This document shows, one piece after another, positions 1,010 through 5,301 of a stretch of DNA of 6,761 nt. The position numbers and the translations under genes were made by a program. Numbering within the stretch: position 1 is the first letter of the stretch; each line of letters begins with the position of its first letter. Where the stretch lies: positions 1 to 6,761 of the IMG/VR virus record IMGVR_UViG_2778261223_000006; one strand, given 5' to 3'. This stretch comes from a virus (Duplodnaviria; Heunggongvirae; Uroviricota; Caudoviricetes). The notes below the pieces were generated by a model. That model saw only the letters and a program-made list of their open reading frames with translations, did not search any database and had not been told where the DNA came from.

Positions 1010-2446
1010 TCAGAATCCTCCTTTCTTCTTGGATTGCGGTTCCTCGCGTTCACGGCGGCGCATTTCAGCGGACTGTTGGTCTGTGTCATAAATAGCGCCA
1101 TTTGCCTGAATGCAATACACCGTGCCGGTATTGCCATGACGATTGAGACGAAGGATTAGTTCGGTTTCACCAGGTGGAACACTGTCATCAAAAGCACCTT
1201 CACGATGGATCCCCACCCAATAATCGCAATCCTGTTCAATCTGCCCTGTATCTCGTGAGTCACTTGGTAATGGGCGTTTATTGGTTCTGCTTTCCAGTGC
1301 GCGGTTAAGCTGCGTCAGAAGCACAACAACGCAATCAAGCTCTTTGGCAAGGTTCTTCAGTCCTTTGGTGATCATGCCGTAAGCAAGGTCGTTGCGATCG
1401 GCCTTCTCAGCAGTCATTAGTGTCAGGTAATCGACCAGAATCATGCCAACACATCCTTTTTCTCGCTTGATTCGACGACTTTCGCTGACGATTTGAGCCA
1501 GAGATAATCCCGGCGTGTCGTCGATGTAAAGCAGGTCGATTTCACTCAAGCGATTGGCTGTTTCGATCGCCCTGTTGAAGTCACCATCGTAATCACCCTG
1601 ATAGCCGTCATCAGCGTCATTTGTCGCCGGAAGGTAAAAAATATTCGGGTTAACACCTGACTTCTGTCCTACCAGTTTTTCCAGTATCTGGTCACCGGGC
1701 ATTTCAAGGCTGAACATCAGAGCGGGCTTTTTCTCATGCACTGCGCAGTTGATTGCCATCTGGCTGTATAGCGTCGTTTTCCCCATCTTAGGGCGAGCGC
1801 CAATGACAAACAGAGAGCCTTTCACCAGACCTTTCGGTGACAGCATCCTGTCCAGCGATGGGATCCCTGTGCTCATTCCTCGTTGTTCGCCTGACGGGTC
1901 AAATCGCTTCTCAAGGTCGCTAACCCAGTCTTCCATGACCTCACCAAATGAGCGAAGGCCGCGACGCGATCCGGTTTTTGCATGGTCTGTCAGTTGCGTA
2001 AAAATCGCCTGAATAGCTTCGTACTTCTGCGTCGCAGTCATTCCGTTGCGGGAATAGAGCAATTCCGTCGCTTCAGTCATGCGGTTGATGGCGTAGCGTT
2101 CCATTGCGGTTTCACGAACCTGCATTGCATAGGCAACGATGTTTGCTGCGCTTGGCGTGTTCTTTGCGATCTCAGCGATATAAGCAAAACCGCCAACAGA
2201 CGCCGTTAACGATTTACGCTCCAGTTCATCGAAAAGCGTCAGGCCATCTACTGGCTTTTGCTCCCGGTGCATTCTGGTTATTTCTTCGAAAAGGATTTTG
2301 TGTGGTCGGCTGTAAAATGAATCAGGCTTCAGCATCGCCAGAACTTTCTGGACGCGCTCACTGCTGTCATCATCCAGAAGCAATCCACCAATCACCGCCT
2401 GCTCTGCCTCGATGCTATGGGGCGGCGCATAAAAATTATCGGTCAT
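1010..2446 (-). CDS. dnaB: Replicative DNA helicase, DnaB family
   Basis: Near-colinear with E. coli DnaB as I recall it: N-terminal PHSIEAEQAVIGGLLLD, FAYIAEIAKNTPSAANIVAYA, Walker A GARPKMGKTT, and LTQLNR...RPLPSDSRDTGQIEQDCD. The track ORF starts at a GTG at 2461; I prefer the ATG at 2446 (MTDNFYAPPHS...), which has SD GAGG about 10 nt upstream. Confidence 0.93.
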   Translation of the reverse strand: MTDNFYAPPHSIEAEQAVIGGLLLDDDSSERVQKVLAMLKPDSFYSRPHKILFEEITRMHREQKPVDGLTLFDELERKSLTASVGGFAYIAEIAKNTPSAANIVAYAMQVRETAMERYAINRMTEATELLYSRNGMTATQKYEAIQAIFTQLTDHAKTGSRRGLRSFGEVMEDWVSDLEKRFDPSGEQRGMSTGIPSLDRMLSPKGLVKGSLFVIGARPKMGKTTLYSQMAINCAVHEKKPALMFSLEMPGDQILEKLVGQKSGVNPNIFYLPATNDADDGYQGDYDGDFNRAIETANRLSEIDLLYIDDTPGLSLAQIVSESRRIKREKGCVGMILVDYLTLMTAEKADRNDLAYGMITKGLKNLAKELDCVVVLLTQLNRALESRTNKRPLPSDSRDTGQIEQDCDYWVGIHREGAFDDSVPPGETELILRLNRHGNTGTVYCIQANGAIYDTDQQSAEMRRREREEPQSKKKGGF

Positions 2447-3326
2447 CGTGTTCACCCTCACGAACTTTCAGGTAGGTATTATCGTTAAGCAGGAAATCAA
2501 ATCCCTTTTTGTGCCAGACGGTTCCGCGTTGATGGTTTGGGCGCTCTTCGAACATCCATCGGCAATTTTCGCCAACGTAGCTCAAATAATTTCTCCAGTC
2601 CTGCATCGTGAACCCATGCCCGTCAAGTTGGCGTGTTATTACTCCGGCTTTGCGCCAGAACGTTCGGATCTGGTTTTTACGCTTGTCATTCAGTGCGCGG
2701 ATTCTTGGCGCTTCAGGAAGGATTTCGTGGTAAGCATCGACAACATCCTGACAGCTGACGGAAGGTTTTTTCTTGTCAGACTTTTTGTCTGCTGTGGCAC
2801 TCTCTAATACGTCAGTATTAGAGATATTATTTATATTATTGTTTATGGACAACCGTTGGACAACCGTTGGACAATCTCCGCTGAGAGCCGCGCCATTACT
2901 GGTGTTTGCGTTGGACAACCGTTGGACAACCGTTGGACAATTTTTTGCCTGAAAATCGTCATATTTAACGATTGTAAACAGGCTAAATTTCTTCCCCATC
3001 GAGCAAATATTAAGCATCCCTTTCGACTCAAAAGTCCGTAATAAGCTCCGAACTTTGTTGTCGGGGATGAATGTTTCTCTGACCAGCGACGGGCGTCCAG
3101 TTATCATCTGACCGCGATCAACAGTTATCGGCCCGATATCCGTATTGACGACAGTAGATTCGTGATTAGCCTTGAGGATTAAGTGAAGCCAAAGATGTAC
3201 TGCCTGAGAGTCCTTATAGAGCCTGCTGTCCATAAACTGGCGGTGTATAGAGACATACCCCATACTGGATGCCTCCTGATGTTGTACAGGGTTATGCCTG
3301 TAATCAGCTAACTTAACGACGCCCAT
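2436..3326 (-). CDS. O: Phage replication initiation protein (lambda O-like origin-binding protein) with the origin embedded in its coding sequence
   Basis: Sits between cII and the helicase as in lambdoid replication modules. Contains internal iterons plus an AT-rich tract (2810-2940), encoding a repeated CPTVVQRLS linker peptide. SD AGGAG 6-7 nt upstream of the ATG at 3326. Sequence family not confirmed from memory. Confidence 0.75.
   Translation of the reverse strand: MGVVKLADYRHNPVQHQEASSMGYVSIHRQFMDSRLYKDSQAVHLWLHLILKANHESTVVNTDIGPITVDRGQMITGRPSLVRETFIPDNKVRSLLRTFESKGMLNICSMGKKFSLFTIVKYDDFQAKNCPTVVQRLSNANTSNGAALSGDCPTVVQRLSINNNINNISNTDVLESATADKKSDKKKPSVSCQDVVDAYHEILPEAPRIRALNDKRKNQIRTFWRKAGVITRQLDGHGFTMQDWRNYLSYVGENCRWMFEERPNHQRGTVWHKKGFDFLLNDNTYLKVREGEHDDR
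2810..2845. other. AT-rich DNA-unwinding region of the replication origin, adjacent to the iterons
   Basis: Sequence tacgtcagtattagagatattatttatattattgtttat is strongly AT-rich within an otherwise balanced coding region. It lies immediately downstream (in gene orientation) of the iterons, as in lambda ori. Confidence 0.6.
2846..2874. repeat. Origin iteron cluster 1: tandem 11-bp direct repeats ccgttggacaa (two full units and one partial)
   Basis: Direct read: tggacaa (2846-2852), ccgttggacaa (2853-2863), ccgttggacaa (2864-2874). Lies inside the O-like gene. Confidence 0.8.
2909..2940. repeat. Origin iteron cluster 2: three tandem copies of (c)cgttggacaa
   Basis: Direct read: cgttggacaa (2909-2918), ccgttggacaa (2919-2929), ccgttggacaa (2930-2940). 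Separated from cluster 1 by a 34-bp spacer. Confidence 0.8.
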
Positions 3327-3474
3327 GCTTCACTCCTGCTTTGGCTAGTCTGTAAACACCAACAAGGCGCTCTGCGAACGCCCTGTTATTTGCTGCGGCT
3401 ACCACTAATCCCTCAGGTGAATCAGGGTGTCGAATCTCTTCTTTTTCCTGGTATTTCTTACGACGTTTTGTCAT
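3313..3474 (-). CDS. Hypothetical small basic protein (53 aa) between cII and the O-like gene
   Basis: Translated by hand: MTKRRKKYQEKEEIRHPDSPEGLVVAAANNRAFAERLVGVYRLAKAGVKHGRR. Strong SD AGGAG 5 nt upstream of the ATG at 3474. Stop overlaps the start of the O-like gene by 14 nt. Absent from the ORF track (below its length cutoff). Confidence 0.5.
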   Translation of the reverse strand: MTKRRKKYQEKEEIRHPDSPEGLVVAAANNRAFAERLVGVYRLAKAGVKHGRR

Positions 3475-3508
3475 AATTACTCCTGTGGATTGATCCAGTC
3501 TTTCTACA

Positions 3509-3787
3509 TCAGGCCTCGAAGAATTCGCCGTTCTTCGGGGCTTTTTCTTTTGTCAGCATTCTGGCTACTTTCTTAGCCAGTTCCGCCAACTCCTCGTCTT
3601 CAACACCCCATTCAAGAACAGCAAGAAGCATTCCCATTTTGGGGATGAAGCTGTCTTTCCATCGCGAAATTTGCGATTCATTAATCCCTAACGCGTCGGC
3701 AACCTTTCGCTGACCACGTACAGCAATTCGATTCAGGATGTTGCTTGTAATTGCATTCGCTTTCTTGCGAGTACTTGTAAGTTGCAT
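3509..3787 (-). CDS. cII: Transcriptional activator CII
   Basis: The core SQISRWK...IPK...MLLAVLEWGVEDEE aligns with lambda CII (SQISRWKRDWIPKFSMLLAVLEWGVVDDD). The RBS/start context TTAAGGAAATACTTACATATG is lambda-like. Position directly downstream of cro and nutR. Confidence 0.9.
   Translation of the reverse strand: MQLTSTRKKANAITSNILNRIAVRGQRKVADALGINESQISRWKDSFIPKMGMLLAVLEWGVEDEELAELAKKVARMLTKEKAPKNGEFFEA
3741..3754 (+). promoter_or_regulatory. Candidate CII-binding box (TTGC-N6-TTGC) of a PRE-like promoter reading towards cro/cI, inside the 5' end of cII
   Basis: TTGC ttgtaa TTGC read on the plus strand at 3741-3754, antisense to cII codons about 11-15. Lambda PRE has the same TTGC-N6-TTGC architecture within the cII N-terminal coding region. 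No clear -10 identified. Confidence 0.35.
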
Positions 3788-3895: not shown

Positions 3896-4090
3896 CTATT
3901 TGTTTTTCTTGTTGCTTGGGAAAGGACGAACTTCCTCTCCAATCACACTGCCATCAGGCTTTACCGTAACCATAATGTTACGGCCTGCCAGAATGGCCTT
4001 GCTGATAGCGCACTGGATTACACCAAAGTCACTGGCTGCTTTAGCCTGTCCATGGATTTTGGCGTAATCGGCAAGTGTCATTCGAATCAT
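3896..4090 (-). CDS. cro: Cro repressor
   Basis: [64 protein letters not shown] aligns along its length with lambda Cro ([63 protein letters not shown]). The track begins at a GTG at 4096; I prefer the ATG at 4090, which has SD GGAG 7-8 nt upstream. Confidence 0.9.
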
Positions 4091-4119
4091 ATGCACTCTC
4101 CGTTATTAACCATGAACAA

Positions 4120-4196: not shown

Positions 4197-4913
4197 ATGG
4201 AAAATAAAAAATCACTGACGACAGAACAGCTCGAAGACGCTAAGCGGCTTAAGGCTTTGTATGAGTCAAAAAAGAAAGAATTGGGAATAACCCAATACTC
4301 AATCGCTGATGAACTGGGTATCACCCAAGGAGCGGTAGGGCATTATCTTAATGGCAGAAACGCGCTAAACGTTGAGGTCGCATCTGGTTTTGCACGTTTG
4401 TTGCAAGTCTCAATTGCTGATTTTAGCCAGTCAATTGCTGCCAAGGTTGCAGAACAGGCAGAAAGCCTTAAGAGCGATGCCAACGTAAGGTATGCAGGGG
4501 AATACAGAGCAGGAAAGAGGTATCCGGTGTTAAGCAGTATCCAGGCTGGCTCGTGGTGTGAAGCATGCGAACCATACACCATTAAAGACATAGATGTTTG
4601 GCTTGAGTCTGACGCGCATATTCAAGGTAATGCGTTCTGGCTTAAAGTGGAAGGTGATTCAATGACGGCACCGGTTGGGTTAAGCATTCCAGAGGGAACA
4701 TTCGTTCTTTTCGATACCGGAAGGGAGGCGATCAACGGCAGCTTGGTCATAGCAAAACTTTCTGACTCTAACGAAGCAACATTCAAGAAGCTGATAATCG
4801 ACGGCGGAAATAAATACCTCAAGGGACTTAACCCTGCATGGCCTCTCGTGCCAATCAATGGAAACTGCAAGATTATAGGCGTTGCAATTGAGACAAAACT
4901 AAGGCTGGTTTGA
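4197..4913 (+). CDS. cI: CI repressor (HTH DNA-binding domain plus S24 LexA-like autopeptidase domain)
   Basis: N-terminus LTTEQLEDAKRLKALYESKKKELG matches lambda CI ([24 protein letters not shown]), with a divergent recognition helix. Ala-Gly cleavage site (IQAGSW), catalytic Ser (VEGDSMTAP) and Lys (ATFKKLI) motifs are present. Confidence 0.95.
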   Translation: MENKKSLTTEQLEDAKRLKALYESKKKELGITQYSIADELGITQGAVGHYLNGRNALNVEVASGFARLLQVSIADFSQSIAAKVAEQAESLKSDANVRYAGEYRAGKRYPVLSSIQAGSWCEACEPYTIKDIDVWLESDAHIQGNAFWLKVEGDSMTAPVGLSIPEGTFVLFDTGREAINGSLVIAKLSDSNEATFKKLIIDGGNKYLKGLNPAWPLVPINGNCKIIGVAIETKLRLV

Positions 4914-4932: not shown

Positions 4933-5301
4933 ATGGTTGGAACCGCTATAGCAAGCTTTTTTGGGATGTTGGCAATCTCAACAATTTACGGCTTAGCGCA
5001 TGCTTTTATTGCGAAATCTCTATCAGAAAAAATAAGCCAGGCTTGGGCGCATAGATCAGCTCGTTTCATGATTCTAGTGGTCATAGCAATACAAGGGATA
5101 TCTGCATTTATCCTCTATGGATCAAGCTTATACCTGTTGTATCAAGGCGCGACATTTACGCCTTACACCAGTGATTACGGAACTCTATACGATGGTAGTG
5201 AAGACATCTCTATGGCTTGGATCGTCTTTGGTTTATCTGTGGCCGTGTCTGTTGTAGCAGACATCATTAAGGTAATTCTCGTCTTAACCTTCGCTGACTA
5301 A
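4933..5301 (+). CDS. Integral membrane protein (122 aa, about 3 TM helices) co-transcribed with cI; candidate lysogen-expressed exclusion/defence protein in the rex position
   Basis: ATG lies 19 nt after the cI stop, with SD AAGGGGGA between. Three long hydrophobic segments (residues about 5-27, 45-70, 95-120). Occupies the slot between cI and OL/PL that holds rexA/rexB in lambda. No family recognised. Confidence 0.75.
   Translation: MVGTAIASFFGMLAISTIYGLAHAFIAKSLSEKISQAWAHRSARFMILVVIAIQGISAFILYGSSLYLLYQGATFTPYTSDYGTLYDGSEDISMAWIVFGLSVAVSVVADIIKVILVLTFAD

What the first reader, a model, noticed from the sequence alone, without database searches (positions are those of the whole stretch)
3313..3474. 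Unannotated 53-aa basic ORF with a strong SD between cII and the O-like gene
Lambda has no gene between cII and O. Here there is a 162-nt ORF with a consensus SD (AGGAG, 5-nt spacing) whose stop overlaps the O-like start, which suggests translational coupling. The product is lysine/arginine-rich at the N-terminus (MTKRRKKYQEKEE) and could be a small nucleic-acid-binding or regulatory protein. It is too short for the ORF track.
Basis: seen in the sequence. Interest (0 to 1): 0.5.

Follow-up and report, generated by a model that had tools for sequence, protein, structure and literature searches.

The report
Known small gene before replication initiator
The 53-codon reading frame is a real, strongly conserved small protein gene, but it has been annotated since 2000 as phage HK97 gene 53 (Sf6 gene 42), sits in front of the replication initiator gene of many lambda-like phages, and still has no known function.

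Summary
The ORF is real and lies on the minus strand (ATG 3474-3472, TAA 3315-3313). It has an AGGAG Shine-Dalgarno 5 nt upstream and a 14-nt overlap with the O-like initiator's start. It is not new: its product is 100% identical to HK97 Gp53 and the Sf6 gene 42 protein, and it belongs to PHROG 1331 ("unknown function"). It occurs in 97 phage records and in 571 of 5426 complete E. coli genomes. Hayes et al. 2012 (PMC3349717) already drew the "cII-oop-orf-O-P" layout.

It is a genuine protein gene. In 15-17 diverged loci the median dN/dS is 0.13-0.14 in this frame, there are no stops and all indels are in frame.

The "strong SD" and the ATG belong to the 33-bp boundary sequence shared by lambdoid phages. 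Lambda uses that sequence to start O. On the other strand it carries the -10 of the oop promoter.

In about 25 loci the order is cII-like, ORF, O-like initiator, phage-encoded helicase. None has a lambda-P-type loader. P22 orf48, an unrelated protein, fills the same slot.

There is no Pfam, NCBIfam, PDB or fold match. My best inference is a replication-module accessory protein co-translated with the initiator; the function is unproven. Novelty: already known. Interest: low.

The parts
3313..3474 (-). 53-aa protein gene of the HK97 gp53 / Sf6 gp42 family (PHROG 1331)
   Evidence: ORF. 100% identical to HK97 Gp53 (H51). phrog_1331 E 1.4e-37 over the full length. dN/dS 0.13-0.14 in this frame only.
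3480..3484 (-). Shine-Dalgarno AGGAG, 5 nt before the ATG
   Evidence: Read directly. A GGAG/GAGG-type element 5-9 nt upstream is present in all 17 loci.
3467..3499 (-). 33-bp lambdoid 'boundary sequence 5' (ACTGGATCAATCCACAGGAGTAATTATGACAAA). It contains the ORF's SD, ATG and first codons, and it is a mosaic recombination joint.
   Evidence: Exact match, 0 expected by chance. Sequence quoted in PMC3349717. Annotated as bsq5 in Sf6. Megablast matches break at both of its edges. Aligns with the lambda O start.
3469..3477 (+). Putative pO promoter -10 (TG-n-CATAAT) on the opposite strand. The hexamer contains the complement of the ORF's start codon.
   Evidence: Homology with lambda pO and the promoter annotated in P22-pbi (PMC3349717). 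-10-like hexamers lie at the start codon in all loci. The strict consensus scan did not call it because the -35 is weak.
3485..3550 (+). oop-like antisense RNA (about 63-66 nt), complementary to the 3' end of the cII-like gene and ending next to the ORF's SD
   Evidence: Terminator at 3511-3543 plus a T run. Fold -27.2 kcal/mol, z -4.86. The first 29 nt from 3488 are identical to the P22 oop RNA recovered by RNA-seq (PMC13397905). An antisense terminator is present in 17/19 loci.
3509..3787 (-). cII / P22 c1-like transcriptional activator gene (upstream neighbour)
   Evidence: Pfam Phage_CII 1.8e-42; phrog_191.
3313..3326 (-). 14-nt overlap of the ORF's end with the initiator's start (ATGGGCGTCGTTAA). 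The initiator's own SD, AGGAG, lies at 3337-3333 inside the ORF.
   Evidence: Conserved in 17/17 loci across different initiator bodies. The same overlap is annotated in HK97, Sf6, ES18, HK633, 1717, HK629, Oslo and SPN9CC.
2436..3326 (-). O-like replication initiator (Sf6 gene 43 type) with the origin iterons inside it (2846-2875, 2912-2941)
   Evidence: phrog_345 5.8e-85; Sf6 annotation; iterons.
1010..2461 (-). Phage-encoded DnaB-like replicative helicase (downstream partner of the initiator)
   Evidence: Pfam DnaB_C 3e-60 and DnaB 3.5e-31.

Best explanation
SHOWN. The ORF is a genuine small protein gene, a member of the HK97 gene 53 / Sf6 gene 42 family (PHROG 1331). It is the first cistron of the replication gene block in the early-right (pR) operon. 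Its SD and ATG are the same ones that lambda uses for gene O. They lie in the 33-bp boundary sequence, whose other strand carries the -10 of the oop promoter. Its stop overlaps the start of the O-like initiator by 14 nt, and the initiator's SD lies inside the ORF's last codons. The amino-acid sequence is under strong purifying selection.

INFERRED on expression. The ORF is translated from the pR transcript like lambda O. Ribosomes finishing it deliver or unmask the initiator's start, so that the two proteins are made together. Pairing of oop RNA, which ends right next to the SD, could damp both.

INFERRED on function (about 35-40% likely). The 6.1-kDa, pI 10.7 protein has a disordered charged N-terminus with the motif HPDSP(E/D)GLV and an amphipathic helical C-terminal half. 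I propose it is an accessory factor of replication initiation in lambdoid phages that carry their own helicase instead of a lambda-P loader. It stays 94-100% identical next to three different initiator bodies and two helicase kinds. Its partner is therefore probably something invariant: a host replication or proteolysis factor, or the short conserved N-terminal peptide of the initiator (MGVVKLADYR). The confidence number below refers to the shown part (real, known, coupled gene).
For: Identity: 100% to HK97 Gp53 and Sf6 gp42; phrog_1331 E 1.4e-37.

Coding: the median pairwise dN/dS is 0.126 over 108 pairs with dS>0.2. In one search it is 0.14 with 0 stops in the ORF frame, against 1.4-2.5 with 26-48 stops in four other frames. 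The antisense third-position-matched frame gives 0.25 with 11 stops. The core columns 20-45 give dN/dS 0.08 at dS 1.33. Variable columns by codon position are 30/18/50, and all indels are in frame.

Shared start: exact 33-bp boundary sequence, aligned with the lambda O ATG and the P22 orf48 ATG.

Coupling layout: the 14-nt overlap is kept in 17/17 loci.

Synteny: the order cII-like, ORF, O-like, phage helicase holds in HK97, Sf6, ES18, HK633, 1717, HK629, ENT47670, Oslo, SPN9CC, NM-3, 12 genomic loci, two distant metagenome/genome loci and an Arsenophonus element. No lambda-P loader was seen in any of them.

Independence from the initiator body and helicase type: the same protein sits next to HK97-type, Sf6-type and lambda-O-type initiators. 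The 53-aa and 55-aa subtypes both pair with both O types.

Structure: residues 1-20 unstructured, helices 21-29 and 31-46, pLDDT 68; muH up to 0.45 for residues 31-48.
Against: No experiment on this protein was found in four literature searches. There is no homology to any characterised family or structure. The profile search of 1.84 billion representatives found only 27 relatives and no larger family. The ORF is linked as constantly to the upstream cII-like gene as to the initiator, so position alone does not separate a replication role from a lysogeny role. The distant locus L021 has an initiator without the LADYR N-terminus, which weakens the idea that this peptide is the partner. The mRNA around the initiator start is not significantly structured (z -1.33), so strict structure-dependent coupling is not supported, and the initiator has its own SD. 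The link to phage-encoded helicases rests on about 25 inspected loci, not on a full census.
Confidence: 0.85

Rival explanations
1. A host-directed small effector (host takeover, anti-defence or exclusion). It merely occupies the recombination-prone slot behind the boundary sequence and is unrelated to replication chemistry.
For: It is near-invariant (94-100%) across phages whose initiators and helicases differ, as expected if the target is a conserved host protein. The slot can hold an unrelated small protein (P22 orf48/HkaW) or nothing, as in lambda, which is moron-like behaviour. It is a short, partly disordered protein with a conserved linear motif, HPDSP(E/D)GLV.
Against: Unlike typical morons it has no promoter or terminator of its own. 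It is fused into the operon by a conserved overlap with the initiator. It was never seen away from an initiator gene in about 25 loci, nor in the 9 plasmid-collection hits, of which the 5 with a replication-gene annotation or an inspected context fit the same layout.
Confidence: 0.25
2. A small nucleic-acid-binding regulator. The basic N- and C-terminal tails would bind origin DNA or the cII-O mRNA/oop duplex and tune initiation or cII expression.
For: pI 10.7 and net charge about +8, with KRRKK at the N-terminus and an invariant RR at the C-terminus. The gene lies next to the oop/cII antisense region and the origin.
Against: No HTH, RHH or other DNA/RNA-binding family or fold was detected. 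The model has no beta-strand, so it is not Arc/RHH-like. The basic N-terminal third is the least constrained part (dN/dS 0.28 against 0.08 for the core). The terminal GRR codons are also constrained by the overlapping initiator start.
Confidence: 0.15
3. A lysis-lysogeny modulator acting with the neighbouring cII-like activator, for example a cIII-like protease (FtsH) inhibitor or a cII partner.
For: A CII-like gene lies directly upstream in every complete locus (phrog_191 or phrog_163). The size (53 aa) and an amphipathic helix recall lambda cIII (my knowledge).
Against: The boundary sequence between cII and the ORF is the mosaic joint. The same ORF follows lambda-type, P22-c1-type and phrog_163-type activators, whereas it stays physically fused to the initiator start.
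Confidence: 0.1
4. The peptide has no function of its own. The ORF is only a translated spacer that couples the initiator's translation to the conserved lambda-O-type start, or its conservation comes from the overlapping pO promoter/oop elements.
For: The 5' end overlaps pO and the 3' end overlaps the initiator's SD and start. dS is lower at both ends (0.94 and 0.52, against 1.33 in the core).
Against: The central 26 codons overlap nothing known, yet they have the strongest protein-level constraint (dN/dS 0.08 at dS 1.33). There are 13 invariant residues in 27 sequences. Only this frame shows the low dN/dS together with no stops.
Confidence: 0.03

Closest known systems
HK97 gene 53 product (AAF31131) = Sf6 gene 42 (AAQ12231) = ES18 gp58 = epsilon34 gp49; PHROG 1331
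   Same: The sequence is 100% identical to HK97 and Sf6 and 94-98% identical to ES18 and epsilon34. Length, position and the 14-nt overlap with the initiator are all the same.
   Different: Nothing; the window's ORF is a member. The family itself has no assigned function.
P22 Orf48 / HK022 Orf48 / HK620 HkaW (annotated as DUF2740 in some records)
   Same: It occupies the same slot: it starts at the same boundary-sequence ATG, is 48 aa and basic, overlaps the O-like gene's start (8 nt), and is followed by a DnaB-like helicase. Function also unknown.
   Different: There is no sequence relationship beyond the first three codons supplied by the boundary sequence: hhalign probability 0.1%, and the Pfam scan of the ORF finds no family. 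It is a positional analogue, not a homologue.
Lambda cII-oop-O junction (pO promoter, oop RNA, O translation start)
   Same: The 33-bp sequence with SD, ATG and the pO -10 is shared. An oop-like terminator antisense to the cII 3' end is present.
   Different: In lambda the shared ATG opens gene O itself (38686). Here it opens the 53-aa gene, and the initiator starts 148 nt further on, with a different N-terminus (MGVVKLADYR against MTNTAKILNF).
Lambda cIII (54-aa FtsH inhibitor)
   Same: Similar size, and an amphipathic helix as the likely active part (my knowledge).
   Different: No detectable homology. It lies in a different operon and has a different genetic linkage.

Membership tests
HK97 gp53 family (PHROG 1331) | Full-length sequence similarity to the family profile | tested here: met
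   phrog_1331 E 1.4e-37, residues 1-53 on profile positions 1-53; 100% identity to HK97 Gp53.
HK97 gp53 family (PHROG 1331) | Position between a cII-like gene and an O-like initiator, with the stop overlapping the initiator's start | tested here: met
HK97 gp53 family (PHROG 1331) | Evolves as a protein-coding sequence | tested here: met
   dN/dS 0.13-0.14, frame-specific.
HK97 gp53 family (PHROG 1331) | The product is made in infected or induced cells | not testable with these tools
   No ribosome-profiling or proteomic data were found.
P22 Orf48 / HkaW (DUF2740) | Sequence similarity to Orf48 | tested here: not met
   hhalign probability 0.1%; no Pfam family at E<=1.
P22 Orf48 / HkaW (DUF2740) | Same genomic slot and same start site | tested here: met
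   This shows positional analogy only.
Lambda cIII-type FtsH inhibitors | Sequence similarity to cIII (Pfam Lambda_CIII) | tested here: not met
Ribbon-helix-helix (Arc/Mnt-like) small repressors | N-terminal beta-strand followed by two helices of about 12-15 residues | tested here: not met
   The AF2 model has no strand and only about 25 helical residues. There are no Foldseek PDB matches and no RHH Pfam hit.
Regulatory leader peptide / non-functional upstream ORF | The amino-acid sequence is free to vary; only its translation matters | tested here: not met
   Core dN/dS 0.08; 13 invariant residues.
Translationally coupled gene pair | The upstream stop overlaps or abuts the downstream start, conserved across relatives | tested here: met
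   14-nt overlap in 17/17 loci; 4 nt and 26 nt in distant loci.
Translationally coupled gene pair | Downstream translation depends on upstream translation | not testable with these tools
   This needs reporter fusions. The local mRNA structure is not significant (z -1.33), and the initiator has its own SD.

The most novel reading that the evidence does not exclude
gp53-family proteins, and the unrelated orf48/HkaW proteins in the same slot, would be dedicated mini-cofactors of lambdoid replication modules that bring their own DnaB-type or primase-helicase and lack a lambda-P loader. For example, they could help load or activate the phage helicase at the origin, or protect the initiator from host proteolysis. 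That would be a new, very small class of replication accessory protein, carried by about 10% of complete E. coli genomes.
Probability: 0.2. Interest if true: 0.55.

Novelty: already known. Interest (0 to 1): 0.2.

Why it matters
As a finding it mostly confirms existing annotation. The gene is on record as HK97 gene 53, and the slot was mapped in lambdoid phages by Hayes et al. 2012.

What remains open is its function. The 6-kDa protein is under strong selection, is present in prophages of about one in ten complete E. coli genomes (including O157:H7 Stx phages), and is always welded to the replication initiator. If it proved to be a cofactor for phage-encoded helicases, it would fill a gap in how P22/HK97/Sf6-type modules start replication without a lambda-P-like loader.

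The analysis also shows how one 33-bp sequence serves at once as a recombination joint, as a ribosome-binding site for three alternative genes, and as an antisense promoter.

Tried and rejected
- Pfam and NCBIfam scans of the ORF found no family.
- A PDB sequence profile search found nothing at E<=10.
- The AF2 model (pLDDT 68) searched with Foldseek against the PDB gave no match. I did not try other fold libraries because a short helical model gives meaningless hits.
- A profile search of 1.84 billion representatives found only 27 relatives. The two long repetitive proteins at E about 1e-4 to 1e-6 (eight matched stretches each) I took as likely repeat or low-complexity matches without inspecting them. 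No link to a larger family appeared.
- Rfam on the whole window at E<=1 found nothing; oop has no detectable model.
- The strict sigma-70 scan found no promoter at pO. The pO assignment therefore rests on homology with lambda and P22.
- A frameshift fusion of the ORF to the initiator was considered and rejected from the sequence. The initiator frame is +1 relative to the ORF. There is no slippery site, and the SD-like element is 15 nt from the stop, too far for a prfB-type shift.
- A structure-gated coupling hairpin around the initiator start is not significant (z -1.33).
- Homology to P22 orf48 and to lambda cIII was rejected.
- Four literature searches for a function of gp53, Sf6 gp42 or orf48 found only positional mentions.
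- An AlphaFold complex with the initiator or helicase could not be run with the tools allowed.

Full report
**1. Observation**

The ORF exists exactly at 3313..3474, but on the minus strand. The minus-strand read shows ...GACTGGATCAATCCAC-AGGAG-TAATT-ATG ACA AAA CGT.... AGGAG lies at 3484-3480, followed by a 5-nt spacer and ATG at 3474-3472. The stop TAA is at 3315-3313.

The upstream gene 3509..3787(-) is a CII/P22-C1-type activator (Pfam Phage_CII, E 1.8e-42). The downstream ORF 2436..3326(-) is an O-like replication initiator (phrog_345, 5.8e-85). It is followed by a DnaB-like helicase at 1010..2461(-). The initiator's ATG (3326-3324) lies 8 nt before the small ORF's stop codon, which gives a 14-nt overlap. 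An AGGAG (3337-3333) lies 6 nt upstream of that ATG, inside the small ORF.

The product is 6.1 kDa with pI 10.7.

**2. It is a known gene**

Megablast places the window within 99.3-99.8% of phages Sf6, mEpX2, Huey, HK542 and IME10. tblastn finds the peptide in 97 phage records, 61 of them at 99% identity or more.

The records annotate it as HK97 gene 53 (Gp53), Sf6 gene 42 ("Phage HK97 53 protein homolog"), ES18 gp58 ("function unknown; similar to phage HK97 gene 53") and epsilon34 gene 49. It is PHROG 1331, "unknown function". In RefSeq it occurs in 571 of 5426 complete E. coli genomes and is called "hypothetical protein" next to "replication protein".

Hayes et al. [quoted passage not shown] No paper assigning a function was found. 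P22 work simply carries orf48 along in constructs.

**3. It is a real protein gene**

The large protein search gave 68 clusters, all from Enterobacterales. A profile search of 1.84 billion representatives found only 27 relatives and no link to a bigger family.

I collected DNA from 12 genomic loci (Edwardsiella, Trabulsiella, Yokenella, Enterobacter, Citrobacter, Chimaeribacter, Entomohabitans and others) and from several phages. The results were:
- All loci keep an ATG with a GGAG/GAGG element upstream.
- All length differences are whole codons.
- Nei-Gojobori dN/dS has a median of 0.126 over 108 pairs with dS>0.2.
- As a control, the ORF frame gives 0.14 with no stops. Four other frames give 1.4-2.5 with 26-48 stops. 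The antisense frame with matching third positions gives 0.25, the known artefact, with 11 stops.
- The central 26 codons overlap no other known element, yet they are the most constrained (dN/dS 0.08 at dS 1.33). Both ends have lower dS (0.94 and 0.52), as expected from overlapping signals.

This rules out a chance ORF or a mere translated spacer.

**4. Anatomy of the 5' end**

The 33-nt sequence ACTGGATCAATCCACAGGAGTAATTATGACAAA (3499-3467, minus strand) is an exact copy of the lambdoid "boundary sequence 5" quoted by Hayes et al.. Sf6 annotates it as bsq5.

Aligned with lambda, HK97, P22 and HK630 (lambda coordinates), its ATG is the lambda O start codon (38686), the P22 orf48 start and the HK630 hkaW start. 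So the "strong SD" is inherited from a shared module. It counts as evidence for translation only because lambda O is translated from it (established knowledge).

Megablast matches break at both edges of this element, at query positions 102 and 136 (window 3499 and 3465). This shows that it is the mosaic joint.

On the plus strand the same bases read TG-T-CATAAT (3469-3477). This is the homologue of the lambda/P22 pO -10 (P22-pbi annotates promoter and terminator there), so the hexamer contains the complement of the ORF's start codon.

Downstream on the plus strand lies a 14-bp-stem terminator (3511-3543 plus a T run). The 67-nt RNA folds at -27.2 kcal/mol (z -4.86). From 3488 its first 29 nt are identical to the P22 oop RNA recovered by RNA-seq (PMC13397905). 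An antisense terminator in this position exists in 17 of 19 loci. The predicted oop 5' end (3485-3488) abuts the complement of the SD (3480-3484).

The consensus promoter scan did not call pO because the -35 is weak, and Rfam has no matching model. The pO/oop assignment is therefore by homology.

**5. Anatomy of the 3' end and synteny**

The junction GGAGTGAAGnATGGGCGTCGTTAA is kept in 17 of 17 loci. In all of them the initiator begins MGVV(K/R)LADY(R/Q), although the bodies that follow differ:
- HK97/P22-gp18-like;
- lambda-O-like N-domain (ES18, epsilon34, Oslo);
- Sf6/HK022-like;
- a phrog_277 type.

Two distant relatives keep the arrangement with a 4-nt (ATGA) or 26-nt overlap. One of them (L021) has an initiator without the LADYR motif.

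The gene after the initiator is always a phage-encoded helicase. It is DnaB-like in most loci and a T7-gp4-like primase/helicase in ES18, Oslo and NM-3. An Arsenophonus element shows the same order. No lambda-P-type loader was seen.

The upstream gene is a CII-like activator of one of three kinds (phrog_191 lambda-like or c1-like, and phrog_163). P22 orf48/HkaW occupies the same slot, overlaps its initiator by 8 nt and also precedes a DnaB-like helicase. It is not homologous to gp53 (hhalign probability 0.1%).

**6. The protein**

AF2 with 27 sequences gives pLDDT 68. Residues 1-20 are unstructured and there are helices at 21-29 and 31-46. The second helix is amphipathic (muH up to 0.45).

The invariant residues are E12, P20, G22, L23, V24, A27, F33, A34, R36, G39, A44, R52 and R53. 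In the most distant relatives the surviving signature is (H/Y)PDSP(D/E)GLV.

There is no Pfam, NCBIfam, PDB-sequence or Foldseek match. It is neither RHH-like (no strand) nor cIII-like.

**7. Mechanism**

Shown: it is a conserved coding gene, it shares its start site with lambda O, and it has a conserved overlap with the initiator.

Inferred: it is expressed from pR with the initiator, and termination-reinitiation or SD unmasking links the two. The local mRNA is not significantly structured (z -1.33) and the initiator has its own SD, so coupling is plausible but unproven.

For function, the constant fusion to the initiator gene and the exclusive company of phage-encoded helicases point to a replication accessory role. 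The protein stays 94-100% identical beside very different initiator and helicase bodies. The 53-aa and 55-aa subtypes also do not track initiator type. Both observations argue that its partner is invariant: a host factor, or the initiator's conserved N-terminal peptide.

I rate the replication-accessory reading at about 35-40%, a host-directed effector at about 25%, a nucleic-acid-binding regulator at about 15%, a lysogeny modulator at about 10%, and a functionless spacer at about 3%.

**8. Verdict**

Novelty: already known, as a member of an annotated family of unknown function. Interest: low (0.2). The residual value lies in the unanswered function and in the correlation with self-encoded helicases.

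Noticed in passing
window 3485-3550 (+), promoter -10 at 3472-3477 (+): An oop-like antisense RNA gene lies opposite the 3' end of the cII-like gene. It has a strong terminator hairpin (3511-3543), and its first 29 nt from 3488 are identical to the P22 oop RNA seen by RNA-seq. Its predicted 5' end abuts the complement of the small ORF's SD.
   Followed up: partly
window 2846-2875 and 2912-2941 (+), AT-rich 2820-2846: Origin iterons lie inside the O-like gene, in two clusters of TGGACAACCGT repeats with an 11-bp period, next to an AT-rich stretch. This matches the rep_origin annotated in Sf6.
   Followed up: partly
window 3277-3261 (-): The Sf6-type initiator has a second, strong start signal 21 codons into the annotated ORF: AGGAGG, 8 nt, then ATG at 3263-3261. 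It is conserved in L007, L009, L012 and L014. HK022/HK630-type relatives have no Met there. Two initiator isoforms, or a fossil of the original start after fusion to the gp53 cassette, are both possible.
   Followed up: partly
O-like N-terminus, window 3326-3297 (-); loci L001, L004, L007-L017: The first ~10 codons of the initiator (MGVVKLADYR) travel with the small ORF across at least three unrelated initiator bodies. P22-type initiators behind orf48 start MSNL..., and lambda O starts MTNTAKILNF (a ClpX-recognition N-terminus in lambda, from my knowledge). The small ORF and this leader behave as one cassette.
   Followed up: partly
alignment A2, window ~3450-3440 (-): gp53 and orf48 are unrelated proteins, yet they share the DNA string ACCAGGA-AAA about 25 nt into the ORF. 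This is where the -35 of pO should lie on the other strand, which suggests a DNA-level constraint on codons 8-11.
   Followed up: no
L006 (JAEZIN010000021.1) and L009 (CACSKA010000001.1): Records titled 'Bacillota bacterium MAG' and 'Chryseobacterium sp.' carry this enterobacterial lambdoid prophage module (100% and 83% protein identity). This is most likely contamination or misbinning in those assemblies.
   Followed up: no
protein P0041 (ENA contig, 650 bp): A natural hybrid in which the lambda O N-terminus (MTNTAKILNFCRGNF) is joined in frame to residues 16-53 of the gp53 family. It looks like a recombinant formed near the boundary sequence.
   Followed up: no
window 4197-4913 (+), 3896-4096 (-), 4933-5301 (+): The rest of the immunity region is present. 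There is a 238-aa ORF that looks like a CI repressor, a 66-aa ORF in the cro position, and directly after the repressor a 122-aa ORF with hydrophobic stretches that might be a prophage-expressed accessory gene. None of these was scanned against any library.
   Followed up: no
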